Shown piece by piece: positions 1,326 to 46,729 of a stretch of DNA of 53,063 nt. The notes under the pieces are model-generated. The model was given only the letters and a program-made list of their open reading frames with translations. It was not told where the DNA came from and did no database searches. A program made the translations under genes and the position numbers. Positions within the stretch are counted from its first letter, which is position 1; each line of letters opens with the position of its first letter. Source of the stretch: Candidatus Moraniibacteriota bacterium (GTDB lineage Bacteria > Patescibacteriota > Minisyncoccia > Moranbacterales > DUUL01); the NCBI GenBank assembly GCA_027008775.1, contig JALVDV010000011.1:1-53063 (forward strand), given 5' to 3'.

Positions 1326-1622
1326 ATGAAGGATTTAATGGCAAGCGTGATCGGATTTGATTGGGACAATGGGAATTGTAAAAAGAATAAAATCAAACAT
1401 AAAGTTGAAACAAACGAGTGTGAAGAAGTATTTTTTAATAAACCGCTATTAATTTTTCCAGACAAAAAACATTCTGAAATTGAAACTAGATATTACGCTT
1501 TAGGTAGGACAGTATTGGACAGAAAATTATTTGTCGTTTTTGTTACAAGGAATAATAAGATAAGGGTCATTTCTGCTCGTGATATGAGCAGAAAAGAACG
1601 AAAAATATATGAAAAAAAATAA
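1326..1622 (+). CDS. brnT: BrnT-family (DUF497) toxin
   Basis: 98-aa ORF. FDWDxGNxxKNxxKHxV ... RVISARDMSRKERKIY follows the BrnT/DUF497 layout. It overlaps the downstream antitoxin by 14 nt. Confidence 0.85.
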   Translation: MKDLMASVIGFDWDNGNCKKNKIKHKVETNECEEVFFNKPLLIFPDKKHSEIETRYYALGRTVLDRKLFVVFVTRNNKIRVISARDMSRKERKIYEKK

Positions 1623-1884
1623 GCGAATCCCAAAATTTAAAAATGAAAAACAAGAGGCTGATTTTTGGCAAAAAAACGATTCGGCTGATTTTATTAATTG
1701 GTCAAAAGCGAAAAAAAATATTAAATTCCCAAATTTGAAGCCTTCTACTAAAACTATTTCCTTGAGATTATCAGAATCTATGTTGAATAATCTAAAGATA
1801 GTGGCTAACCAAAAAGACATACCTTATCAATCTTTTATAAAAGTCATCATAGACGAAAGATTAAAAGCCGAGCTAGAAAAATGA
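1609..1884 (+). CDS. brnA: BrnA-type (CopG/RHH-like) antitoxin
   Basis: 91-aa ORF whose C-terminal ISLRLSESMLNNLKIVANQKDIPYQSFIKVII is typical of BrnA antitoxins. Its position directly after BrnT supports the call. Confidence 0.8.
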   Translation: MKKNKRIPKFKNEKQEADFWQKNDSADFINWSKAKKNIKFPNLKPSTKTISLRLSESMLNNLKIVANQKDIPYQSFIKVIIDERLKAELEK

Positions 1885-1894
1885 CCAACATCAA

Positions 1895-1963
1895 ATGAAA
1901 AAAATCAATGACATCCGCCTTTTCCACAGCGGGGACATAAGATTTACGGAGCAGTTTTAATGA
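1895..1963 (+). pseudogene. Displaced remnant of the pheS 3' end (direct repeat copy 2)
   Basis: atgaaaaaaatcaatgacatccgccttttccacagcggggacataagatttacggagcagttttaatga would encode MKKINDIRLFHSGDIRFTEQF*, matching the PheS C-terminus. No upstream pheS body is attached. Confidence 0.8.
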
Positions 1964-1998
1964 CTGCTGTCATAAGCCTAAAAACAATTGCTGTCTAA

Positions 1999-2027
1999 TT
2001 GACAAAGTAATACAAATCATATACAAT
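1999..2027 (+). promoter_or_regulatory. sigma70-type promoter of the second brnTA-like cassette
   Basis: TTGACA (1999-2004), 17-nt spacer, TACAAT (2022-2027). The start context AACATGAAGG is identical to that of cassette 1. Confidence 0.55.
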
Positions 2028-2033
2028 GTAAAC

Positions 2034-2318
2034 ATGAAGGTGGACGATTATATAATTGATTGGAACAAGGAGAAGAATATTTGGCTAAAAAAACATAGAC
2101 AAGTTTCCTTTGAAATTGTTGAAGTAAAGCTGTTGGAGAAGGATATTGTAGCAATAATTCCGCATAACAGTAAAAAATACGCCCATCAATTTTTAATAGT
2201 CGTTAACATAGATGATTATATCTACGTTGTCCCATTCGTAATCAACGAAGATGATAAAATAATTTTTTTAAAGACGATTATTCCGAGCAGAAAATATACC
2301 AAGAAATATTTAAAGTGA
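2034..2318 (+). CDS. BrnT-like (DUF497) toxin, second copy
   Basis: 94-aa ORF. IDWNKEKNIWLKKHRQVSFEIVE ... IIFLKTIIPSRKYTKKY parallels the DUF497 pattern. It is followed by a BrnA-like gene with a GTGA/ATG overlap. Confidence 0.7.
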   Translation: MKVDDYIIDWNKEKNIWLKKHRQVSFEIVEVKLLEKDIVAIIPHNSKKYAHQFLIVVNIDDYIYVVPFVINEDDKIIFLKTIIPSRKYTKKYLK

Positions 2319-2608
2319 ATTTTATGAATAAAAGACAATCACAACAAGATGTTTATTTTGACAGGGAGGAAGAAGAGTTATCAAAATACATTGAAAAAAC
2401 GAATCTAAAACCGTTAGAGAAAGCAAAGGAAAAAGAATTGATTGACGGGCTGGCTAATGCTGCCAAAAATACTTTGGCTAAGAAAAAAGTGGTTAGTCTA
2501 AGATTATCCGAAAGAGATTTATTGTATTTCAAGGCTAAGGCGGCTGAAGAGGGAATACCATACCAAACTCTAATGACCTCTGTCTTGCATAAATACATTT
2601 TTTCTTAA
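2315..2608 (+). CDS. BrnA-like antitoxin, second copy
   Basis: 97-aa ORF whose C-terminal VSLRLSERDLLYFKAKAAEEGIPYQTLMTSVLHKY is the canonical BrnA signature. The start may be the GTG at 2315 or the ATG at 2324. Confidence 0.8.
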   Translation: MNFMNKRQSQQDVYFDREEEELSKYIEKTNLKPLEKAKEKELIDGLANAAKNTLAKKKVVSLRLSERDLLYFKAKAAEEGIPYQTLMTSVLHKYIFS

Positions 2609-7987: not shown

Positions 7988-8551
7988 ATGTCGTTAACCA
8001 CAATTTTACTAATCATCATTGTTGTTCTGGCCGTTTGGTTAATCTTTGTTTACAATGGTTTAATCAGATTGCGCAACAGAGTAAAAGAGGCTTGGTCCGA
8101 CATAGACGTGCAACTTAAAAGACGTTATGACCTCATTCCCAACCTGGTGGAAACAGTCAAAGGTTACGCCAAACACGAAAGTGAAACTTTGGAAAAAGTG
8201 ATAGAGGCCAGAAACAAAGCTATGGCCACTCAAAAAAGTGGAGACGCTAAAGAGCAAGCGGAGGCGGAAAATGTTTTGTCCTCAACCTTGAAGTCAATTT
8301 TTGCCTTGGCGGAAAGCTATCCTGAGCTAAAAGCTAATCAAAACTTTCTTGAATTACAAAGAGAGCTGGCCGATACAGAGAACAAAATCCAGGCCGCTCG
8401 GCGATTTTACAACGGCAACGTTAGGGATTTCAACACAAAGATAGAGGTTTTTCCAAACAATATTTTGGCCAACGTTTTCAACTTCAAAAAATTTGAATTT
8501 TTTGAAATTGGCGACCAAAAAGAACGTGAAAATGTAAAGGTGGAATTTTAA
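7988..8551 (+). CDS. lemA: LemA family protein
   Basis: 187-aa ORF with an N-terminal TM and YNGLIRLRNRVKEAWSDIDVQLKRRYDLIPNLVETVKGYAKHE, typical of LemA. It is paired with htpX as is commonly seen. Confidence 0.9.
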   Translation: MSLTTILLIIIVVLAVWLIFVYNGLIRLRNRVKEAWSDIDVQLKRRYDLIPNLVETVKGYAKHESETLEKVIEARNKAMATQKSGDAKEQAEAENVLSSTLKSIFALAESYPELKANQNFLELQRELADTENKIQAARRFYNGNVRDFNTKIEVFPNNILANVFNFKKFEFFEIGDQKERENVKVEF

Positions 8552-20546: not shown

Positions 20547-22451
20547 TTAAACTTCCATAATAACCGGAATAACCATTGGACGACGTTGAGTTTTTTGAAA
20601 CAAAAACACTCCCACTTTTTCCCTGATTTGCTTAGTTAAAATGGTCCAATTAATCTTGGTACCCTTTAGGGACGAAGTATTTTTTTCTATCGTTTCTTTG
20701 ACAATTTTTTTAGTGGCGTTTATCAAGTCAAAGTTTTCTTTAACGTGAATAAACCCACGGGAAGTAATCTGGATATTCCCGTTAATTTTTTTAGATTTTC
20801 CATCAATGATAACGGTAATCATAAAGATTCCATCTTCAGCCAACACTTGTCTATCTCGCAAGACTATGTGCTCAAGCTCATTGACACCCAGACCGTCAAT
20901 AAAAACATAATCAGTTTTCACCTTTTCCTTCAAAATACGCGGTTTTCCTTTGTAAAGATTGAAAACATTACCGTTATCCAAGATGAAAATATTTTCCTCT
21001 TTTATGCCAACTTCCATGGCTAGCTTTTTAGCTTCTTTCAAAAAATAATGATAGGCATAAACAGGGATATAATAATCCGGCTTCACTTCTTTAAGCATAG
21101 CTTGAATATCGGAAGCGTTGCAGTGTCCACTAACATGGATATCCATCATATCGCTATGTATTACATTATCGCACTGTCTGTACAAGTTGTCTTTCAATCG
21201 CTGAATGGTGTTTTCATTGCCGGGAATAACGGAAGAGGAAAAGACAACTGTGTCCTTTTTGTTTAAAGTGATATATTTGTGATTACCGGTCACTATCTTT
21301 GACAAAGTGGCGTTGCTTTCTCCTTGGGCGCCGGTGCATAAAACGATTAACTTATTATCCGGATATTTGTCCATATCCTTAACGTCAATCAATATTCTCT
21401 TGTCAAACTTTAAGTAACCCAATTCTTGAGCTATTTTAACATTCAATTTCATGCTGTATCCATCCAAAACAACTTTTTTGCCAATCTTTCCGGCCATTTC
21501 AATGATGTTTTTAATTCTCTCAATTTGCGAAGAAAACATTCCAATAATAACCTTTCCTTCTTTGTTTTGGATTATCTTTCTTATATTGTCATACATCACC
21601 TTTTCAGAAGTGGGACTGTTGTGATCAGTGGCTCCCAAGCTCTCCAACATCAAAATTGTCGGTCGTGGTAATTTAGCCAAGTGTTTATAATGCATTGTTC
21701 TCTCTCCTTTTTCATTTCTGGCTACAGTCCAGTCACCGGGATGAATCACCGTCCCCTCGGGTGTTTCCAAGGTTACGCCCACGGCATCCATAATGGAATG
21801 TTCAATCTTGAAAAAGCCTAATTTGAACTTACCTAACTTAATTTTCTGCCGAATGTCTTTAATGCGAGTCGTTTTCAATTTCTTACTGGATGACTTTTGA
21901 TGATCCTCCATTTTGTTTTTAATCAAAGCCAAGGTAAAATCTCTGGCTATAACTCGCGGGTAATTTAACTGGGGCAAAAGAATGGGAGCGGCGCCAATAT
22001 GGTCCAAATGACCGTGACTGAAAACTACTGCTCTGATTTTTTTCTCTTTACCTTTTAAATAAGAAATGTCAGGAACAATATAATCAACCCCCGGCATATC
22101 CTCTTCAGGGAATTGGATTCCCATATCCAAAATAACAATGTCATCTTCGTATTCAAAAACAGTCATATTTCGGCCAACTTCTTCCTGTCCTCCCAGAGGG
22201 ATGATTTTCAGTCCCTTGATTTTACTTAAATCAGGATTTAAGTTTTGACGCTTATCTTTCTGAGAAGAATGCGTTTTTTTAGATGGACTCGTTTTTTTTG
22301 GTTTGGTCTGTTTCTTTAATTTAACAGTCTTTTTCTGCAGATTGGCCTGTTGTTTTTTCATGTTTTTTATCAAATCATCAATGGCGGAGCCATTAGTCAC
22401 AACAGCCTTTTTGGTTTTATTCTGCTTTTTTTCAATTTCTCGTGTAGTCAT
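20547..22451 (-). CDS. rnj: ribonuclease J (metallo-beta-lactamase/beta-CASP) with a Lys-rich N-terminal extension
   Basis: 634-aa ORF with the HGHLDHIG motif, beta-CASP region and HVSGH. The first ~80 aa are low-complexity K/Q/T-rich. Confidence 0.9.
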   Translation of the reverse strand: MTTREIEKKQNKTKKAVVTNGSAIDDLIKNMKKQQANLQKKTVKLKKQTKPKKTSPSKKTHSSQKDKRQNLNPDLSKIKGLKIIPLGGQEEVGRNMTVFEYEDDIVILDMGIQFPEEDMPGVDYIVPDISYLKGKEKKIRAVVFSHGHLDHIGAAPILLPQLNYPRVIARDFTLALIKNKMEDHQKSSSKKLKTTRIKDIRQKIKLGKFKLGFFKIEHSIMDAVGVTLETPEGTVIHPGDWTVARNEKGERTMHYKHLAKLPRPTILMLESLGATDHNSPTSEKVMYDNIRKIIQNKEGKVIIGMFSSQIERIKNIIEMAGKIGKKVVLDGYSMKLNVKIAQELGYLKFDKRILIDVKDMDKYPDNKLIVLCTGAQGESNATLSKIVTGNHKYITLNKKDTVVFSSSVIPGNENTIQRLKDNLYRQCDNVIHSDMMDIHVSGHCNASDIQAMLKEVKPDYYIPVYAYHYFLKEAKKLAMEVGIKEENIFILDNGNVFNLYKGKPRILKEKVKTDYVFIDGLGVNELEHIVLRDRQVLAEDGIFMITVIIDGKSKKINGNIQITSRGFIHVKENFDLINATKKIVKETIEKNTSSLKGTKINWTILTKQIREKVGVFLFQKTQRRPMVIPVIMEV

Positions 22452-27359: not shown

Positions 27360-27740
27360 ATGGCCGAAAGAAAAACAATAACCATCATCGTCGCTGAAGA
27401 CGATGATGATGTAAGAGTTTTTTATACAGAATTATTCTTACCATTTTTTTTACCCGAGGCAAGAGTGCGCTCCTGTCCTAATGGCAGGGATGCGCTAAAA
27501 AAAATTCAGGAGGAGGATGCGAACCTTCTCCTGACTGATTTTCTGATGCCCATCATGGATGGGCTAGAGCTAGCCCGAGAGGCCAAAAAAATAAACCCTG
27601 GACTGAAAGTTTTGATGGTCTCGGGGACGCCACCGTCTACTTCTCAGGCTCAAGAGGCAGGGGTAGATGTGGTGTTAGTAAAACCGGCCAAAAATCTGGC
27701 CGGTGAAATAAAGAAAATGCTAGACTTATGTCCTGTCTAG
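27360..27740 (+). CDS. stand-alone response-regulator receiver domain (CheY-like)
   Basis: 126-aa ORF with an acidic pocket EDDDD, the phospho-acceptor context LLLTDFLMPIMDG, then MVSG and VLVKP. There is no output domain and no kinase nearby. Confidence 0.85.
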   Translation: MAERKTITIIVAEDDDDVRVFYTELFLPFFLPEARVRSCPNGRDALKKIQEEDANLLLTDFLMPIMDGLELAREAKKINPGLKVLMVSGTPPSTSQAQEAGVDVVLVKPAKNLAGEIKKMLDLCPV

Positions 27741-27926: not shown

Positions 27927-27958
27927 TTATTATGAAATTATCAATAATCTCATAATAG
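27927..27958. repeat. 32-bp AT-rich palindrome, copy C (29/32 identical to copy B)
   Basis: ttattatgaaattat-ca-ataatctcataatag, in a 420-bp ORF-free spacer between convergent genes. Confidence 0.9.
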
Positions 27959-28201: not shown

Positions 28202-29548
28202 TCATTGCTTGCCCCCAGTTTTGTTAGTTGCTCTCATCGTCTTTTCGTAATACAAATCAACATCCCTGATCCATTTTCTGGCGGCCGCCCAACCACCGGT
28301 GGCGTTGCAATCGGAACCGCATTTCCACAAAACCATTTCTTGAGGAGTATCAATTCCTGATTTAATCAGCCTTTCAATTCTGCCTCCCACTGTTTCAACC
28401 GCATCTTGTGGACTGTCAAAACAGGTGTGTCCGCCGGTACCCATGCGGGCGCGTTGACCGCGGTAACCCCAATAATTGTAGCAGTCCTGCCCATTCAAAA
28501 CTGGCACCCTTCGTCCCCAGTTACTTTCTTTCTTGGCAATAGCCACTAAAAAAGCGGCCACCACTTTGTCTTTTTTGGCAATGTAAGGCACCATTTTTTC
28601 CATTGGGGTTCCCGCTAAAATCTTTTTTAAGGCGGTTCCCAGTTTCTCTTCTTTGTAGCGATTAAACTTTTCCAGGACCTCCATTACCAACTTATCTATC
28701 GGTTCTTCGTTGTTGTCGTCAGTCTTTTTTAAATTTCTAACATCCATACTACCCAAAACAGAGACGGTTTTTTGGCTAATCAATTCTTTTTGTTTCTTTT
28801 CCAAAGCGCTTTTTATTTTACGGTTGGAAACATTCATAGAGTAAACCACTGTGGAAAAACTAACCATTAGCAAGAGAGTTGCAAAAACATAAAAAGCCTT
28901 GCTTTTTAGAAAAAGATTTGCAAACGAAAAGGGCGAAATATTTCTTTCTTCCTTTTGTTCGAAATAAGAAAAATTTTGTCCAAACTGGTCGGCGCGACTT
29001 TTGTTATTGAAAAATGAAACTGGTAAACCTGTTGTCGCCAATTCTGCTTGTTCGGTTTTAGTGGTTAAAGACAAGGTCTTGGTTTTTAGAGAATCGGTGT
29101 TCTCCTGGGAATCACTCGCCAACCGACCGGCCATTTTATTTTTCCGCTGAATGCTATTTTGCCAAGATTGAGCTAATTTAGCGATTTCACTTTCCTTTTG
29201 CAAGGACAATTTACTCGTTTCTTTAACAATAGTTTCAAAATAGGTTTCCGGAGCGATCATATCAATTAAACCCACTCGGGCGCGTTTTAATCTCACTAAA
29301 CAACCTTTTTTAATATCCACCTTCTTATTCTTGTCAATAAAATTTCTCTTAATGCCATCAATAAAAAAATCTCTCTTTTTCTTAGCTACAAAAAGAGTTT
29401 CTCCTTGCAAAGAATTTTTTATTTCCTTAATCTTTGCCAGTGCCTGCTTTTTATCAGTGAAGATGAAGCGAAAATCCGGCTTGTTATTGGCATCCACCAA
29501 ACAGTAGTAGTACTTTTTTATTTTCATATTTTTATTATCGGAATTCAA
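28202..29548 (-). CDS. hypothetical bitopic membrane protein; the C-terminal domain may be a lysozyme/glucosaminidase-like cell-wall hydrolase
   Basis: 448-aa ORF with a central TM (AFYVFATLLLMVSFSTVVYSM). The C-terminal AIAKKESNWG...YNYWGYRG resembles the xxESxWG catalytic motif of the glucosaminidase/FlgJ-type domain. The resemblance is weak and was judged by eye. Confidence 0.55.
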   Translation of the reverse strand: MNSDNKNMKIKKYYYCLVDANNKPDFRFIFTDKKQALAKIKEIKNSLQGETLFVAKKKRDFFIDGIKRNFIDKNKKVDIKKGCLVRLKRARVGLIDMIAPETYFETIVKETSKLSLQKESEIAKLAQSWQNSIQRKNKMAGRLASDSQENTDSLKTKTLSLTTKTEQAELATTGLPVSFFNNKSRADQFGQNFSYFEQKEERNISPFSFANLFLKSKAFYVFATLLLMVSFSTVVYSMNVSNRKIKSALEKKQKELISQKTVSVLGSMDVRNLKKTDDNNEEPIDKLVMEVLEKFNRYKEEKLGTALKKILAGTPMEKMVPYIAKKDKVVAAFLVAIAKKESNWGRRVPVLNGQDCYNYWGYRGQRARMGTGGHTCFDSPQDAVETVGGRIERLIKSGIDTPQEMVLWKCGSDCNATGGWAAARKWIRDVDLYYEKTMRATNKTGGKQ

Positions 29549-30366: not shown

Positions 30367-31459
30367 ATGGAAATCAAAAAGGAACTCAAAGAAATAAAAG
30401 ATAAAATCTCGCGTTTGCGAGACCATCTTTGACCGGGAAGACTGGGCGGGAAAAATAGAAAAAATCAAGAATGAATTAAATAATCAGAGTATTTGGAGCG
30501 ACCACCGGAAAGTTTCCGAGCTATCCCAAAAACTCAACGGTCTGGAAGAAAAAAGTAAGCTTTGGCAAAAAATTAACGACTCTTTTCAGGCGTTGGCGAT
30601 TTTGAGTAATGATCTGGCAGACAGCTTGACCAAGGGTGGAGATAAGAAAATAAATCTGGACGAAACTTCTTTTTTTAGCGAACAAATAACCGAACTACGG
30701 AGTGATTTAAAAAAATTGGAGGAGTTTGTTAAATTTAGTGGACCATATGATTCCGGCGGGGCTGTTGTCAATATTGTTGCCGGAGCCGGTGGAACCGATG
30801 CTCAGGATTGGGTGGAAATGTTGCTAAAAATGTATTTGCGCTTTGCCGAAAAGCAAGGCTGGCAAGCCAAAATTTTGGAAAAAAGCGAGGGAGCGGAGGC
30901 TGGCCTAAAAAGTGTGACCGTAGAGATGACAGGTTCTTTGGTCTATGGTAAAATGAAACAGGAAAGCGGAGTGCATCGTTTGGTCCGGCTTTCACCTTTT
31001 AACAGTGGGCATTCCCGGGAGACCTCTTTTGCTTTGGTGGAAGTTCTGCCCTTGTTGAACAAAAAAGTGGAGATAGAAATAAATCCCAAGGATTTGCGAG
31101 TGGACACTTTTCGTTCTTCCGGCGCCGGCGGACAAAGTGTCAACACTACCGACAGCGCTGTCAGAATTACTCATCTGCCCACCGGCCTGGTGGCCACTTG
31201 TCAGAATGAGCGCTCCCAATTGCAAAATAAGGAAAAAGCCCTGGCTATCCTTAAAGCCCGACTAGTAAAAAAAATGGCAGAAGAGCGCGTTAAAAAAATC
31301 AATGAATTAAAGGGTGAAAGAAAGAAGGCCGAGTGGGGAAACCAAAAAAGATCCTATGTTCTGCATCCCTACAAGTTAGTTAAAGATCATCAAAGCAAGC
31401 GAGAAAGTGCAGCTGTAGAAAAGATATTGGCCGGAGATCTGCAATTGATTCAAAATTAA
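30367..31459 (+). CDS. prfB: peptide chain release factor 2, requires a programmed +1 frameshift: join(30367..30429,30431..31459)
   Basis: The ATG at 30367 opens 21 codons ending ...CAT CTT TGA C (CTT 30427-30429, TGA 30430-32), the canonical CUU UGA C shift site. The +1 frame is open from 30431 and contains the SPF and GGQ motifs. The total is about 363 aa. Confidence 0.9.
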
Positions 31460-34406: not shown

Positions 34407-37400
34407 ATGTCGGAACAAGAAGAGAATGGACAAGAAAAAACAAGGCAATCAGAAAAACAAAGTCACTCGGGCAATGAAGAAAAAGCTTCCTATCAAAGCC
34501 GTTATGGTGACTTGTCCGCCACTTTAAGAAAATTACGTAAAATAAAAAGAGCGTCGGAAGAGGAGGAGGCCGCTTACTATGCCAAGGAACTCAATCTGCC
34601 TTACTTGGATCTAAATATTTTTCCCATTTCTCCAAATGACATAGACATTATACCCGAGGAAGAAGCTCGTCGGGCCCACGTAGTGGTAATTCGTCGCCTG
34701 GATAGGGAATTGATGCTGGGAGCCCTTGATCCCACCAAAAAAGAAGTACAAAAAATCATTAGGAGGTTATCAGAAAAGGAAGGTTTTCAGGTTAGAGTTT
34801 TTGTTGTCTCTCAAAGCTCCTTGGAGGAAGCTTGGGAGAATTACAAAAAGAAAAACCTGGTAGATGTTTTTGATTATTTAAGACTGCAATTGAAAGGGGA
34901 AGATCTGGAAAAGTTTGAAAATGACATCAAAGATATTATGGATTTGGGGAAAAGAATAAGAGAAATTTCCACCACCAAGCTTCTTGATATCATTATTGCC
35001 GGAGCGATTAAGTTGGATGCCTCGGATATCCATTTGGAACCGGAAAAAGACGGGGTTACTGTTCGCTACAGAATAGACGGCGTTCTTCACAAAGTGACAA
35101 CCCTGCCATCAGATGTTTATCCTCATATCGTTTCCCGTATTAAAATACTGAGCAAGATGCTTCTTAATGTCCACGATGTTCCTCAAGATGGACGCTTTAG
35201 CATCAGTATCTCCGGAGAAGACAAATTGGATGTCAGAGCTTCTGTTCTGCCCGGCAACTACGGCGAAAATATAGTGCTACGTCTGCTCAACAGAGATATT
35301 TCCCAATTCAATCTGGAAAAATTGGGACTGACCGGCAAAAATTATGAGTGGCTACTAAAAGAAGTACAAAAAAAACAAGGAATGATTATCAATTCCGGTC
35401 CCACCGGTAGCGGAAAAACAACCACCCTTTACGCCTTAATCAACAAAATAAATTCCGAAGACAAAAAAATTATCAGTATTGAAGACCCTATAGAATACCA
35501 AGTGCCGGGAGTTAGACAGACACAGGTGGACAGGGAGAGAGGATATACCTTTGCCAGTGGCCTGCGTTCTATCGTGAGGCAGGATCCGGACGTTATTCTG
35601 GTTGGAGAAATCCGAGACGATGAAACTGCCGCCATAGCTATTGATGCAGCTCTTACCGGTCATCTGGTTCTTACCACCGTTCATGCCAATACTTCCGCCG
35701 GTGTTGTCAGTCGTCTCTTTGATTTGAGTATTAAACCGGATAGTATTGCCTCGGCCGTTAATGTAATTATAGCGCAAAGATTGGTTAGAACACTTTGTCC
35801 CTACTGCAAAGAAAAGTACAAACCGGCGCCGGAAACGGTTGACAATCTAAAAAAAATGCTTTCCCTAATTTCCCCCAAAGCGCAAATTGAGATACCGAGA
35901 GAAATAAAATATCTCTGGAAGGCTAAAGGTTGTTTAAAGTGTAAAGGTTTTGGTTATAAGGGTAGGGTGGGAATTTTTGAAGTAATGCCTATAGACAGAA
36001 AAATTAAGAAGTTGATAGAAGCAATGGCTTCAGCCGATGAAATAAGGCAAGCGGCTCTGGAGAACGGTTTAATAACTTATGAACAAGACGGAATTCTAAA
36101 GGCCATCGCCGGACAGACTTCTTTGGCTGAAGTGCAGCGAGTAGCCGGGCGGGGCGATTATCTTTTAAAACTTTACGAACAGATAGTTATTCAGACGCTT
36201 GCCAGAGGAATTGAAATCTCCGGAAAAATTATTAGAGCCGTAGAGAGAATTAAAGGAAATTATCAAGCGCTTAAACAACTTGTGCAAGAGGCTGATTCTC
36301 GAGATAAGATAAAATATATTCTAGCCACCGGTTTGGTTTTGCAAGCCGGCGATATCCACATTGAGCCCGGCGAGAACACCTTCAAAATCCGTTACCGAAT
36401 AGACGGAATTTTACATAATCTAGTGGAATTGCCCATGAGTGAATTTTTGACAGTCCTTAATGAAATTAAATCTCTCTTGGGAGTGGAGATAGAAAAAAGG
36501 GAAGGAGTTTTAGACGGTCGTTTCCGCATTGTGTTGTCAAAAAGAAACAAAGAATTTAAGCCGGAAAATATAGACGTAAGAGTTTCCATCATTCTGGGCG
36601 GTTTCGGAGATATTGTGGTTATGCGCTTACTTAACCAGAAAACACAAAATATTGATTTAGACAAATTGGGCCTGCGAAAATACAATGTTCAAAAGCTAAA
36701 ACGTAACATTTTTAAACCCGACGGGATAGTTTTAAATACCGGTCCCACCGGCAGTGGAAAAACCACCACTTTGTACAGCGCTCTAAAAGCCATTTACAAA
36801 CCGGAACTAAAAATCATAACCGTGGAAGACCCGATTGAATACCGCCTGGATGGCATTATTCAAACCCAGGTTAATGAAAAAGAAGGCTACACTTTTTCTA
36901 CAGCCTTGCGAAGCCTTCTGCGACAAAACCCTGATATTATTATGATTGGAGAAATTCGCGATGAGGAAACCGCCCAAATTGCTTACCAAGCCGCTTTGAC
37001 CGGGCACCTGGTTCTCAGTACATTACACACCAACAATGCCGCCGGTTCGGTCAGGCGACTGGTCAATATGGGGGTTAACTTGGATGATGTTGCTTCCGGT
37101 AGTAACTGTTTTATGGCCCAACGTTTAGTTAGAAAACTTTGTCCTTACTGTAAAAAAGAAACAAAACCCTCCCCAGCAGAAAGAGAGCTGATTGAAAAAA
37201 TCATTTCCTCCATTTCTCCGCTTACCAAGATAAAAATCCCAAAGCTGGAAAAAATATATCAACCGGTTGGTTGTCCTCACTGCAATCATTTGGGCTATCA
37301 AGGGCAGTTGCCAATTTCCGAAGTCTTGGAAGTTGATGAGGAAATGGAAAAATTCATCACCACCGATCCTACCACTTCGGAGTTATATGAAAAAGCGATT

Positions 37401-37526
37401 CAAAAAGGCATGCTTTCTTTGAGTCAGGATGGAGTTCTCAGGGTGGTGGAAGGAATTACCACTTTGGAAGAAATCTCCAGAGTTTCCGAAGAGGTTTACC
37501 TGGAAGACTCAAAGAAAGATAATTAA
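34407..37526 (+). CDS. tandem-duplicated GspE/PilB-family secretion ATPase (T2SSE_N domain plus two complete ATPase modules in one polypeptide)
   Basis: 1039-aa ORF. Module 1 (aa ~190-580) has GPTGSGKTTT, SIEDPIEY, DPDVILVGEIRD, TGHLVLTTVHAN and CPYC...CLKC. Module 2 (aa ~635-1030) has GPTGSGKTTT, TVEDPIEY, NPDIIMIGEIRD, TGHLVLSTLHTN and CPYC...CPHC. Confidence 0.85.
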   Translation: MSEQEENGQEKTRQSEKQSHSGNEEKASYQSRYGDLSATLRKLRKIKRASEEEEAAYYAKELNLPYLDLNIFPISPNDIDIIPEEEARRAHVVVIRRLDRELMLGALDPTKKEVQKIIRRLSEKEGFQVRVFVVSQSSLEEAWENYKKKNLVDVFDYLRLQLKGEDLEKFENDIKDIMDLGKRIREISTTKLLDIIIAGAIKLDASDIHLEPEKDGVTVRYRIDGVLHKVTTLPSDVYPHIVSRIKILSKMLLNVHDVPQDGRFSISISGEDKLDVRASVLPGNYGENIVLRLLNRDISQFNLEKLGLTGKNYEWLLKEVQKKQGMIINSGPTGSGKTTTLYALINKINSEDKKIISIEDPIEYQVPGVRQTQVDRERGYTFASGLRSIVRQDPDVILVGEIRDDETAAIAIDAALTGHLVLTTVHANTSAGVVSRLFDLSIKPDSIASAVNVIIAQRLVRTLCPYCKEKYKPAPETVDNLKKMLSLISPKAQIEIPREIKYLWKAKGCLKCKGFGYKGRVGIFEVMPIDRKIKKLIEAMASADEIRQAALENGLITYEQDGILKAIAGQTSLAEVQRVAGRGDYLLKLYEQIVIQTLARGIEISGKIIRAVERIKGNYQALKQLVQEADSRDKIKYILATGLVLQAGDIHIEPGENTFKIRYRIDGILHNLVELPMSEFLTVLNEIKSLLGVEIEKREGVLDGRFRIVLSKRNKEFKPENIDVRVSIILGGFGDIVVMRLLNQKTQNIDLDKLGLRKYNVQKLKRNIFKPDGIVLNTGPTGSGKTTTLYSALKAIYKPELKIITVEDPIEYRLDGIIQTQVNEKEGYTFSTALRSLLRQNPDIIMIGEIRDEETAQIAYQAALTGHLVLSTLHTNNAAGSVRRLVNMGVNLDDVASGSNCFMAQRLVRKLCPYCKKETKPSPAERELIEKIISSISPLTKIKIPKLEKIYQPVGCPHCNHLGYQGQLPISEVLEVDEEMEKFITTDPTTSELYEKAIQKGMLSLSQDGVLRVVEGITTLEEISRVSEEVYLEDSKKDN

Positions 37527-37960: not shown

Positions 37961-38192
37961 AGATTCAAGTTAAGAATTCCACTCGCAATTATCCCGGGCA
38001 AGTAAACTGACCGGAAAAATTTACCACTGTCTCCAAATTAATTATTACACTGAAACAACCGGAACCATCTTTCAATGTAATTAAAATTCTTGCTTACAAA
38101 AACAACAATACTCACATGAAACAATTCGTCATTGTTGTTGTCAGTCTTGTTAACAAACTCCACAAGCAATTTTTTCCAAAGAACAAAAACAT

Positions 38193-38224
38193 CCATTATG
38201 ATATCATCAATAATATCATAATAA
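38193..38224. repeat. 32-bp AT-rich palindrome, copy A (29/32 identical to copy B)
   Basis: ccattatgatatcat-ca-ataatatcataataa, in the 640-bp spacer upstream of comEC. Confidence 0.9.
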
Positions 38225-38602
38225 AAACAATATTGATACGAGGATGGACGGTTCCAAATTTGGCCTCTAGCATTTTTAGTAACAACATCTAATAACACAA
38301 CATTCGGGCACAAGTAAACAACACTCGGGCACAAAACAGAATCTTACTGCCAATTTTGGAATTTCTGATCATAACTAGCTTAACTGAGTAATCGGTTAAC
38401 CAAACATAACACTCATCAATTACATCAAGTGCCGGACTGCTTATCATCCTAACTATAAAGCTTCCACAAATTTTCCGTCCGCAAAATTTTTATGAAAACG
38501 AAAATACTTTCAATTGCTCAAGGAATAGTTGTTTTAGTACATCCTCTTTATTTTTATTTTTAAATATGATATCTTGGGCGACTAAACAGTCATCCTTTTA
38601 AA

Positions 38603-43047: not shown

Positions 43048-44154
43048 ATGAGCAAAGATTATTATGAAATTCTAGGAGTTTCTCGTGACGCCTCGGAGGA
43101 AGAAATTAAAAAAGCTTATCGTAAGCTGGCACACAAATATCACCCGGACAAGGAAAGTGGTGACGAAGAAAAATTCAAAGAGATTAACGCCGCCTATCAA
43201 GTCTTGTCTGACAAAGAGAAAAGACGACAATATGACCAGTTTGGGGAAAATTTTGAGCAAGCCGGTGGCGCCGGTGGCTTTGGCGGTTTTAGCGGTTTCG
43301 GCGATTTTGGTCAAAGCGGAGGTGGCAGTTGGGATTTCAACTTCAGTAGCGGCGGCGGAGGGTTTGAAGATATTTTTGCCGACATTTTCGGACAAAGCGG
43401 TTTTGGACGCTCTGCCCAAGCTAGAGAAAGCAAAGGCTCGGATATAGCCGTTGATGTAACAATTTCCTTTATGGAAATGGCTTTGGGCACAAAAAAGAAA
43501 ATTGAGCTCTATAAAAAAACAGAATGCCCCGCTTGTCACGGCACCGGAGCCAAAGACGGAGAGCTGGAAACCTGTCCCCGTTGTCATGGTCGAGGAACGA
43601 TAGTTAAAAATATCAGAACAATTTTCGGAACCGTTCAACAAAGCATTACCTGTGACCGATGTCTAGGCAAGGGCAAGGTGCCAAAGGTAAAGTGTTCTGA
43701 GTGTGGCGGGGACGGTTATGTCAGACGCTATGAAACAATAGAAATAGATATTCCCGCCGGTGTTGAAGATGGCCAAACAATTAAAATTCCCGGTAAGGGT
43801 GAATATCCTCGCGGTGGCGGTCAGCCCGGCGATCTTTATGTTACCATTCACGTTCAAGAAGACAGCCGTTTTGAAAGAGAGGGTAACAATATAATTTCTT
43901 TTGCGACTATTAAGTTTTCCCAAGCAGCCCTGGGAGATGTTATTGCAGTGGAAACGGTTCACGGTCCGACCAAAATAAAAATTCCCGCCGGTACCCAACC
44001 GGGAGACATTCTCAGAATTAAAGGCAAGGGCATCCAACGAGATGGCTATTTTGGCAAGGGAGACCATTTGGTCAAAATAAAAGTTGAAGTACCAACCAAA
44101 CTTGACAGTAAACAAAAGAAACTGATTCAAGAATTACGCGAGAATGGACTTTAA
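43048..44154 (+). CDS. dnaJ: molecular chaperone DnaJ
   Basis: J domain with HPD (YHPDKE), a G/F-rich linker, and four CxxCxGxG zinc-finger repeats. Confidence 0.95.
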
Positions 44155-46080: not shown

Positions 46081-46248
46081 TTATTGAAACAAACAGCCAA
46101 CAAAAACAAAACCACAACAGTAGTTCTGGCTATATTAACAAAGTCTATTGCGCTACATTATCTTAGTACATCATAATCTTATTTACAATATTATCAAAAC
46201 AATCACATGACCCTTGGCAAACAATATTATCACAAATGCGAACGGGTC

Positions 46249-46280
46249 TTATTATGATATTATCAATAATATCATAATAA
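46249..46280. repeat. 32-bp AT-rich palindrome, copy B (perfect 15-bp arms)
   Basis: ttattatgatattat-ca-ataatatcataataa; every arm position pairs with its mirror. Confidence 0.95.
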
Positions 46281-46403
46281 GGCCTTTGTTGTTTGTTGTG
46301 TTCCTTTTTTATTTCCATTGTTTTCGCAGTTCTTGTTTAGATTTTTAGTCATTGTCAATTATTTCACTCTATCTTACAAATATCCGATGTTTAATATCAA
46401 TTG

Positions 46404-46644
46404 CAAATAAAAATGTCATACTTCATTACCAAATTAAAATGTCATACCTGGGAAAAAATTAAAAACTCAAAAACTCAAAAAATCACACCGCTGTTTCAAG
46501 CTCCCGGAGTTCATTTTCAGTGATTTATTGAGCTTATCCTCGGAATCATTTTTAACAATCTGTTAATTACATTCTTGGCGTCATTTTGTGTCATTTTTAG
46601 TGATTTATCAAAAGAGCTTTCGGTGTCATTTTAGGTGATTTGAT
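46404..46644 (+). repeat. cluster of short direct repeats (iteron-like) upstream of the LTD gene
   Basis: caaat[a/t]aaaatgtcatac occurs twice (46404-46421, 46430-46447). aaaaactc occurs twice in tandem (~46470-46486). tcatttt[c/t/-]ag[t/g]tgattt occurs three times (46511-46528, 46591-46608, 46627-46644), with a partial copy at 46579-46590. Confidence 0.8.
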
Positions 46645-46729
46645 GCGGACCCTTGCTTTTTCCACAAAAATAATCTAGACTGACCTCCTAATTAATTTCG
46701 GGTCCCCCGACAAGTTTCAAAACCGAGAG

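What the first reader, a model, noticed from the sequence alone, without database searches (positions are those of the whole stretch)
46249..46280. 32-bp AT-rich palindrome present three times, always in long ORF-free spacers
Seen: copy B, TTATTATGATATTAT-CA-ATAATATCATAATAA, has perfect 15-bp arms. Copies A (38193-38224) and C (27927-27958) are each 29/32 identical to B, in the same orientation, with the same CA centre. In copy C the two changed internal positions (10 and 23) are mirror partners, but the change gives an A/C mismatch rather than a compensated pair. All three copies sit in the three longest non-coding spacers of the window (640, 710 and 420 bp).
Inference: candidates are an operator for a dimeric DNA-binding protein, a cruciform or hairpin recognised by a recombinase or transposase (REP/PATE-like), or an RNA hairpin. 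The non-compensatory mirror change argues slightly against a conserved RNA stem. It fits better with a DNA-protein site whose two half-sites drift, or with neutral decay.
Basis: seen in the sequence. Interest (0 to 1): 0.65.

Follow-up and report, generated by a model that had tools for sequence, protein, structure and literature searches.

The report
Operator palindrome of a CPR repressor
The three AT-rich palindromes are most likely binding sites for a small dimeric ArsR-type DNA-binding protein that is conserved in Patescibacteria (CPR bacteria), so they point to an undescribed regulator-operator pair in a group whose gene regulation is almost unknown.

Summary
Three copies of a 32-bp palindrome lie at 27927, 38193 and 46249, none is expected by chance, and nothing else in the window scores close. 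They sit in the three longest feature-free spacers.

The motif is not private to this genome. A degenerate pattern found it in 40 loci among 185,579 species genomes, 37 of them Patescibacteria MAGs. The consensus is ATTATGAYATTAT-NN-ATAATRTCATAAT (13-2-13, variable centre).

In 8 palindrome-selected loci, and in 8 of 8 loci selected only by the protein, it lies just upstream of, and often also downstream of, a 90-97 aa winged-helix gene. That protein has the ArsR/SmtB fold (HlyU, CzrA). Diverged regulators carry correspondingly diverged palindromes.

Sites are strongly intergenic (3 of 43 intragenic). Only the 32 bp is repeated. The three hairpins differ widely in stability, and mismatches show no G:U bias.

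The regulator gene of this genome was not found, and what the three window sites control is inferred only. Nearby genes are comEC, an Flp pilin and an LTD surface protein. This is a new member of a known kind, of moderate interest.

The parts
46249..46280 (.). Copy B: perfect 15-2-15 palindrome TTATTATGATATTAT-CA-ATAATATCATAATAA. It lies 231 nt after the Flp-pilin stop and 449 nt before the LTD-protein start.
   Evidence: 44.6 bits.
38193..38224 (.). Copy A: CCATTATGATATCAT-CA-ATAATATCATAATAA. It lies 232 nt after the stop of the 139-aa membrane protein and 378 nt before the comEC start.
   Evidence: 38.4 bits. It is identical in strain L135.
27927..27958 (.). Copy C: TTATTATGAAATTAT-CA-ATAATCTCATAATAG. 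It lies between convergent genes, a response regulator (27360-27740, +) and a 448-aa protein (28202-29548, -).
   Evidence: 37.3 bits. It is identical in strain L135.
46188..46232 (+). Two extra exact copies of the inner half-site plus centre, ATATTATCA, at 46188-46196 and 46224-46232. They lie 33-36 nt apart upstream of copy B and may be auxiliary half-sites.
   Evidence: the only three exact matches in the window are these two and the one inside copy B.
46229..46235 (-). TTGTGAT motif, 13 nt from the edge of copy B on the minus strand.
   Evidence: the same motif lies 8-13 nt from the palindrome in S145_42 (7 paralogous copies) and in L020. That is 3 independent lineages against 0.2 expected..
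46170..46197 (-). Best sigma-70-like promoter match in spacer B (TTGATA-16-TATGAT, 10 of 12), starting 52 nt from copy B on the minus strand. Its layout resembles the palindrome-to-promoter arrangement of S145_42.
   Evidence: This is a consensus match only; its function is inferred.

Best explanation
Each copy is a 13-2-13 (extendable to 15-2-15) inverted-repeat operator. It is bound by a homodimer of a small (90-97 aa) ArsR/SmtB-fold winged-helix protein that is conserved in Paceibacteria-type Patescibacteria. One recognition helix reads each half-site (core ATTATGAnATTAT), and the central two base pairs are not read. In relatives the protein autoregulates. The palindrome fills the short gap in front of its start codon and contains -10-like hexamers (TGTCATAAT, TATGAT), so a bound dimer would block RNA polymerase. 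A second site usually follows the gene. The same protein also binds a handful of further sites per genome. The three window sites are such satellite sites, in regulatory spacers next to competence, pilus and surface genes (comEC, Flp pilin, LTD protein). Shown here: the motif, its conservation, its linkage to the regulator gene, the co-variation, and the protein fold. Inferred: actual binding, repression as the outcome, and the target genes in this window.
For: 1. The motif is specific to one group. A pattern with 22 specified bases hit 40 loci among 185,579 species genomes, 37 of them Patescibacteria MAGs (Nomurabacteria, Campbellbacteria, Paceibacteria and others).
2. In 8 palindrome-selected loci the site lies 0-20 nt upstream of, or right beside, a 91-95 aa winged-helix gene.
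3. The test run from the protein side gave 8 of 8. Homologues found by protein search (L041, L044, L042, L043, L128, L129, L130, L131) all have a 13-2-13 palindrome within about 100 nt upstream. Six of them have another at or just after the 3' end.
4. Regulator and palindrome co-vary. The L004-type goes with GACAT, the L014-type with GATAT, P0043 with GAGAT, and P0024 and P0050 with ATTATAATATTAT. The 49%-identical P0016 and P0017 go with ATTCTAACATTCT and ATTCTAATGTTCT.
5. The protein belongs to the ArsR/SmtB group. A profile search of PDB gave HlyU at 1.8e-10, then CadC and CzrA. The AlphaFold2 model has pLDDT 94.5 and the order a1-a2-a3-a4-b1-b2-a5. Foldseek gave CzrA at TM 0.87, then SmtB and HlyU.
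6. The ArsR/SmtB family is known to bind 12-2-12 inverted repeats (PMC8790569).
7. The sequence pattern fits a protein site. Half-site positions 3-9 and 11-15 are nearly invariant, while 11 different dinucleotides occur at the centre.
8. Sites are intergenic: 3 of 43 are inside genes against at least 76% coding sequence, P about 1e-21.
9. Only the roughly 32 bp is multi-copy in the source metagenome.
Against: The regulator gene of this genome was not found. There is no homologue in the window, and contigs of the best run do not match the L014 regulator at 80% identity or more. The three window sites lie 380-450 nt from the nearest downstream start, or between convergent genes (copy C), so they do not overlap an obvious promoter of an annotated gene. 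In S145_42 the site lies about 60 nt upstream of the -35 box, which is not a classical repressor position. Three sites lie inside essential genes (uvrC, alaS, sua5). No binding experiment exists. About 840 kb of DNA from PilB-selected relatives lack the motif.
Confidence: 0.72

Rival explanations
1. The same winged-helix protein binds the sites, but they are not classical operators. They would be structural or roadblock sites: chromosome-organising or centromere-like (as AspA on pNOB8, or parS), or insulators that stop read-through between genes.
For: AspA, an ArsR-fold centromere-binding protein, is among the profile and fold matches. Many sites lie 2-30 nt after a stop codon. Copy C lies between convergent genes. 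Some sites are inside genes. Sites cluster: 3 in 18 kb here, 5 in 600 bp in L130, and pairs bracketing the regulator gene.
Against: No ParA- or ParB-type partner lies next to the regulator in any locus. Sites are scattered over many contigs in S145_42. The position immediately upstream of the regulator's own start codon is typical of autoregulation. The window shows no cluster of DnaA boxes.
Confidence: 0.12
2. The palindrome is a short selfish or domesticated repeat (REP-like or MITE-like) that spreads through the genome, with the flanked winged-helix gene as its associated protein.
For: It is multi-copy: at least 14 strict copies in MAG S145_42, and about 60 unitigs touch it in run X1, with contigs breaking there. 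The gene is bracketed by two copies, which recalls a REPtron. The site in alaS is a recent, lineage-specific gain: 1 of the 120 closest orthologues has it, plus one with a similar sequence.
Against: The associated protein is a 95-aa DNA-binding domain without a catalytic domain, and no Y1 or other transposase lies beside the sites. The repeated unit is only about 32 bp, with no conserved flanks or target duplications. There are tens of copies, not hundreds. The intragenic sites replace existing codons rather than add a cassette. The sequence is conserved across many species, which is unusual for a selfish repeat.
Confidence: 0.1
3. The palindrome acts as an RNA hairpin (terminator, processing or stability element) or as a DNA cruciform or recombination site.
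For: Copy B folds into a 19-pair hairpin of -22.9 kcal/mol, is followed by a T-rich stretch, and was flagged by the terminator scan. Many sites follow stop codons closely.
Against: Stability is not conserved: A is -7.4 and C is -9.7 kcal/mol, the latter with z = -1.2, no better than shuffles. Mismatches at mirror positions are as often C/A as T/G, so there is no tolerance pattern for G:U pairs. The primary sequence, not just the pairing, is conserved across genera. Most copies have no T-run. Rfam gave no match near any gathering score. A dif-like site would be single-copy.
Confidence: 0.05

Closest known systems
ArsR/SmtB-family repressors and their 12-2-12 inverted-repeat operators (SmtB, CzrA, CadC, AzuR; non-metal members HlyU, BigR, PagR, SdpR)
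   Same: The protein is a small dimeric winged-helix protein with the a1-a5 topology. The operator is a long imperfect inverted repeat with a 2-bp centre. One or two operators sit at or near the regulator's own promoter, and similar repeats are reported upstream of or within other genes (PMC8790569).
   Different: Arms are 13-15 nt and extremely AT-rich. The sequence is unrelated to the TGAACA-type metal-sensor operators. The alignment shows no CXC (a3N) or a5 His/Asp/Glu metal site, and L014-type proteins have no cysteine, so the signal is unknown. Scores are below the Pfam HTH_5 and NCBIfam cut-offs. The regulon has many sites, including sites inside genes.
REP elements with RAYT transposases (REPtrons)
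   Same: Both are short, palindromic, mostly intergenic multi-copy repeats, and in both a gene is flanked by two copies.
   Different: The flanked gene encodes a winged-helix protein, not a Y1 transposase. There are tens of copies, not hundreds. The motif is AT-rich and lacks the GTAG head. It has no clustered BIME-like arrays.
AspA centromere-binding protein of Sulfolobus plasmid pNOB8
   Same: It is an ArsR-fold protein, matched by the regulator in the profile search of solved structures (E = 3e-6) and the fold search (TM 0.74). From my own knowledge, not checked here, it binds a palindrome upstream of its own gene.
   Different: No ParA/ParB partners are present, the setting is a bacterial chromosome, and sites are dispersed.

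Membership tests
ArsR/SmtB-type operator with its repressor | Inverted repeat with arms of about 12 nt around a 2-bp centre | tested here: met
   The motif is 13-2-13, often 15-2-15. Eleven different centre dinucleotides occur in 62 sites. The 12-2-12 rule is taken from PMC8790569.
ArsR/SmtB-type operator with its repressor | The site lies at the regulator's own gene (autoregulation) | tested here: met
   This holds in relatives: 8 palindrome-first loci and 8 of 8 protein-first loci. In the window itself no regulator gene is present.
ArsR/SmtB-type operator with its repressor | The cognate protein has the ArsR/SmtB winged-helix fold | tested here: met
   HlyU at 1.8e-10 by profile. AlphaFold2 pLDDT 94.5. 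CzrA at TM 0.87. However, the Pfam HTH_5 score of 18.4 bits is below the cut-off of 22, and the NCBIfam score of 33.5 is below 55.
ArsR/SmtB-type operator with its repressor | Sequence-specific binding of the dimer to the palindrome | not testable with these tools
   This needs EMSA, DAP-seq or a co-crystal.
Metal-sensing ArsR/SmtB subclass | An a3N CXC motif or an a5 DxHx10Hx2E metal site | tested here: not met
   Alignment A2 shows no such motifs. L014-type proteins contain no cysteine.
REP/RAYT (REPtron) | An IS200/IS605-like Y1 transposase gene flanked by the repeats | tested here: not met
   The flanked gene is a 90-97 aa winged-helix protein. The window has no such transposase next to the sites.
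REP/RAYT (REPtron) | Hundreds of copies per genome, often in clustered arrays | tested here: not met
   There are at least 14 strict copies in S145_42. 31-mer depth in run X1 suggests about 5-6 exact copies at this genome's coverage. Whole genomes were not available.
MITE or IS terminal repeat | A repeated unit longer than the palindrome, with target-site duplications | tested here: not met
   Similarity and multi-copy depth end at the edges of the 32 bp.
Intrinsic terminator or structured RNA | A stable, GC-containing stem followed by a U-tract; structure conserved rather than sequence | tested here: not met
   Free energies are -22.9, -7.4 and -9.7 kcal/mol. Most copies lack a T-run. Mismatches show no G:U bias. 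Rfam gave no hit near any gathering score.
parS or centromere-like site | Adjacent partition genes (ParA/ParB type) and clustering near the origin | tested here: not met
   No partition genes appear in any regulator locus. The window has no cluster of DnaA boxes. Origin positions are unknown.

The most novel reading that the evidence does not exclude
The protein is one of the few global regulators, or a chromatin-like site-specific protein, of Paceibacteria-type CPR bacteria. Its long palindromes arise anew wherever control is useful, even by recoding loops of essential genes (alaS, sua5, uvrC). Together with a second motif (TTGTGAT) they mark a regulon of surface, pilus and DNA-uptake genes tied to the episymbiotic lifestyle.
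Probability: 0.2. Interest if true: 0.7.

Novelty: new member of a known kind. Interest (0 to 1): 0.5.

Why it matters
Patescibacteria have tiny genomes and few transcription factors, and almost nothing is known experimentally about how they control genes. This work gives a concrete, testable pair: a 95-aa protein and a 32-bp site. The pair is conserved over many genera, and the half-site varies with the protein, which offers a natural specificity series. It could give a first handle on a CPR regulon. It would also help annotate the unusually long non-coding spacers in these genomes, and it explains why assemblies of these organisms break at this sequence.

Tried and rejected
- **Heat-shock operator (CIRCE-like).** I first took neighbouring genes of about 540 and 95 aa for groEL/groES. 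They turned out to be a PIF1 helicase, a zinc-ribbon protein and the winged-helix regulator.
- **Half-site at dnaJ.** The lone strong half-site at 43059 is simply the codons for DYYEI.
- **Fur box, dif site and DNA uptake sequence.** These were resemblances from memory only. The variable centre, the copy number and the linked regulator do not fit.
- **Footprinting of orthologous spacers.** 80 PilB-selected metagenome loci (840 kb) lack the motif, and synteny breaks right after pilB. They also contain no regulator homologue.
- **Strain comparison.** Strain L135 is identical across spacers A and C because these lie in identical recombination tracts, so it is uninformative.
- **1.39-kb length difference between the window and the ENA contig.** It is an IS insertion upstream of dnaJ and is unrelated to the palindromes.
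- **Rfam.** Scans of the three spacers at a permissive threshold gave only noise.
- **Literature.** Four full-text searches found no description of this motif or regulator.

Full report
**Observation**

The palindrome is present as described. Copy B (46249-46280) has perfect 15-nt arms around CA. Copies A (38193-38224) and C (27927-27958) each differ from B at 3 positions, on the same strand. No match was found in 100 dinucleotide-preserving shuffles.

A half-site weight matrix built only from other genomes scores the three sites at 37-45 bits. The next window hit scores 5.6 bits, and the shuffle maximum is 11.7. The three spacers share nothing beyond about 30 bp. They are 642, 712 and 461 bp long. 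They are the longest feature-free spacers once tRNAs and the frameshifted start of prfB are counted.

**Setting**

The window is almost a whole 54-kb contig of a Patescibacteria MAG from hydrothermal-vent metagenomes. Genes near the sites are:
- a response regulator and a 448-aa protein, which converge on copy C;
- a PilB-PilB fusion, a 139-aa membrane protein, then copy A, then comEC;
- dnaJ, dprA, a DUF192 protein and an Flp pilin, then copy B, then an LTD/PKD surface protein.

**The motif is conserved across CPR bacteria**

The pattern ATTATGANATNATNNATNATNTCATAAT has 22 fixed bases. It matched 40 loci among one genome each of 185,579 species, and 37 of those loci are Patescibacteria MAGs. 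One MAG, S145_42, has at least 14 copies.

The 62 sites collected give half-site positions 3-9 and 11-15 as nearly invariant. Position 10 is variable, mostly T or C, and is usually mirrored in the other arm. Eleven different centre dinucleotides occur, with a preference for CA/TG.

**Linkage to a regulator**

In 8 palindrome-selected loci the site lies 0-20 nt upstream of, or right beside, a 91-95 aa gene with weak HTH_5/MarR matches.

I then reversed the test. Homologues of the two protein subtypes were found by protein search, and their contigs were fetched without reference to the motif. All 8 independent loci have a 13-2-13 palindrome within about 100 nt upstream of the gene, and 6 have another at or just after its 3' end. 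L130 has four sites in an 860-bp ORF-free spacer plus one downstream.

The half-site changes with the protein:

| Regulator | Half-site |
|---|---|
| L004-type | ATTATGACATTAT |
| L014-type | ATTATGATATTAT |
| P0043 | ATTATGAGATTAT |
| P0024, P0050 | ATTATAATATTAT |
| P0016 (49% identical) | ATTCTAACATTCT |
| P0017 (49% identical) | ATTCTAATGTTCT |

The differences between these proteins are concentrated in the predicted recognition helix.

**The protein**

A profile search against solved structures gives HlyU (1.8e-10), CadC, AspA, CzrA and PagR. The AlphaFold2 model has pLDDT 94.5 and the ArsR order of elements. It superposes on CzrA (TM 0.87), SmtB and HlyU.

No curated Pfam or NCBIfam model passes its cut-off for most members. 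The family comprises 244 clusters at 50% identity with E no greater than 1e-10. It has no metal-site motifs. ArsR/SmtB proteins are known to bind 12-2-12 inverted repeats at or near their own and other promoters (PMC8790569).

**Rival explanations**

- *RNA hairpin or terminator.* The three hairpins have -22.9, -7.4 and -9.7 kcal/mol, the last no better than shuffles. Mismatches show no G:U bias. Most copies lack a T-run, and Rfam gives nothing.
- *Mobile repeat.* In the source metagenome only the roughly 32 bp is multi-copy. The flanks return to the genome's depth of about 30x, and 31-mers inside the palindrome reach 150-190x, which suggests about 5-6 exact copies. Contigs break there. No transposase is associated. 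Sites are intergenic: 3 of 43 are inside genes against at least 76% coding sequence, P about 1e-21.
- *The intragenic sites.* The three sites in uvrC, alaS and sua5 encode HYDII(D/N)NVIM in variable loops and are not cassette insertions. The alaS site is a recent, lineage-specific gain. I cannot fully explain this. It keeps a spreading-repeat or structural-site reading alive at low probability.

**How it may work in the window**

This part is inference. The palindrome itself carries -10-like hexamers. In L004-type loci it ends 6-8 nt before the regulator's ATG, which suggests a leaderless or short-leader transcript repressed by the bound dimer.

In S145_42 the site follows the stop of one gene. 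After it come 11 nt, then TTGTGATTAAAA, and about 60 nt after the palindrome a clear TTGACA-17-TATAAT promoter of a paralogous membrane-protein family. The TTGTGAT motif recurs at the same distance in L020 and on the minus strand beside copy B. Beside copy B a TTGATA-16-TATGAT match follows 52 nt after the palindrome.

Copy B also has two extra inner half-sites upstream. What copies A and C control is open, since copy C lies between convergent genes.

**Limits**

The regulator gene of this genome was not found. PilB-selected relatives lack the motif. There is no experimental binding evidence, and no publication on this pair was found.

**Verdict**

The palindrome is real and conserved. It is most likely an operator of an uncharacterised CPR ArsR-like autoregulator: a new member of a known kind, of moderate interest.

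Noticed in passing
L030:1867-1894 (alaS), L034:2523-2550 (sua5/tsaC), L022:1136-1163 (uvrC): Perfect copies of the palindrome lie inside essential genes. The alaS and sua5 sites encode HYDII(D/N)NVIM and replace a variable loop rather than adding a cassette. Only 1 of the 120 closest AlaRS orthologues has the sequence, plus one with a similar version.
   Followed up: partly
window 46397-46465: A second short repeat in spacer B (...CAATTGCAAATAAAAATGTCATAC..., with AAAATGTCATAC occurring twice) is multi-copy in the source metagenome. It reaches depth up to about 330 against 30, on contigs of the same depth with different flanks.
   Followed up: partly
window 46510-46650: There are three direct repeats of about GTCATTTTnAGTGATTTAT upstream of the LTD-protein gene. 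A similar sequence occurs elsewhere in the metagenome (a loose end).
   Followed up: no
window 42971/42972 (L045:1-743): The ENA version of this contig carries about 1.39 kb more than the window. At window 42971/42972, upstream of dnaJ, it diverges into a gene that by eye looks like a transposase, so probably an IS insertion that differs between assemblies. The gene call has no Pfam hit on record and I did not scan it.
   Followed up: partly
L072:174-221, 8403-8450, 21395-21442; L020:2701-2740: Other CPR genomes have their own long perfect palindromes in long ORF-free spacers. One is a 48-bp palindrome (TTCTGGCTATTTAAATATCCATTTAAATGGATATTTAAATAGCCAGAA) present three times around pilB. The shared core TCCATTTAAATGGA also sits about 25 bp from the main palindrome in L020. 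Further families occur in L092, L093 and L106, and in L056 and L057.
   Followed up: partly
window 23200-44300 compared with L135: A second strain is 98.5% identical overall, but the differences are patchy. The response-regulator gene is 25% divergent, and the 3' parts of ftsE, comEC and the MBL gene are 3-4% divergent, next to identical stretches. This indicates recombination tracts. One tract ends at the start of spacer C.
   Followed up: partly
L004:5848-5875, L007, L015, L023, L041: In L004-type loci the second palindrome overlaps the 3' end of the regulator gene (coding IMTLCRM). It is followed by a conserved TTATCCACA, which looks like a DnaA box.
   Followed up: no
window 34407-37526: A 1039-aa protein is a tandem fusion of two PilB/GspE-type ATPases (two T2SSE domains). 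The same fusion is conserved in many CPR metagenome contigs.
   Followed up: partly
window 1326-2608: Two adjacent BrnT-toxin/CopG-BrnA-antitoxin-like pairs are present. The first pair has clear BrnT and CopG_antitoxin hits; in the second only the antitoxin has (weak) hits and its 94-aa partner has none. Separately, a 63-bp repeat (98% identical) lies at 1180-1242, the 3' end of pheS, and at 1901-1963, after the first pair.
   Followed up: no
window 30367-30432: prfB starts with a 21-codon ORF that ends in a stop, consistent with the usual programmed +1 frameshift of RF2.
   Followed up: no
window 38116-38292: A 58-aa ORF was called as a gene in strain L135, and it runs through copy A. Copy C has no comparable ORF, so it is probably not a real gene.
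   Followed up: partly
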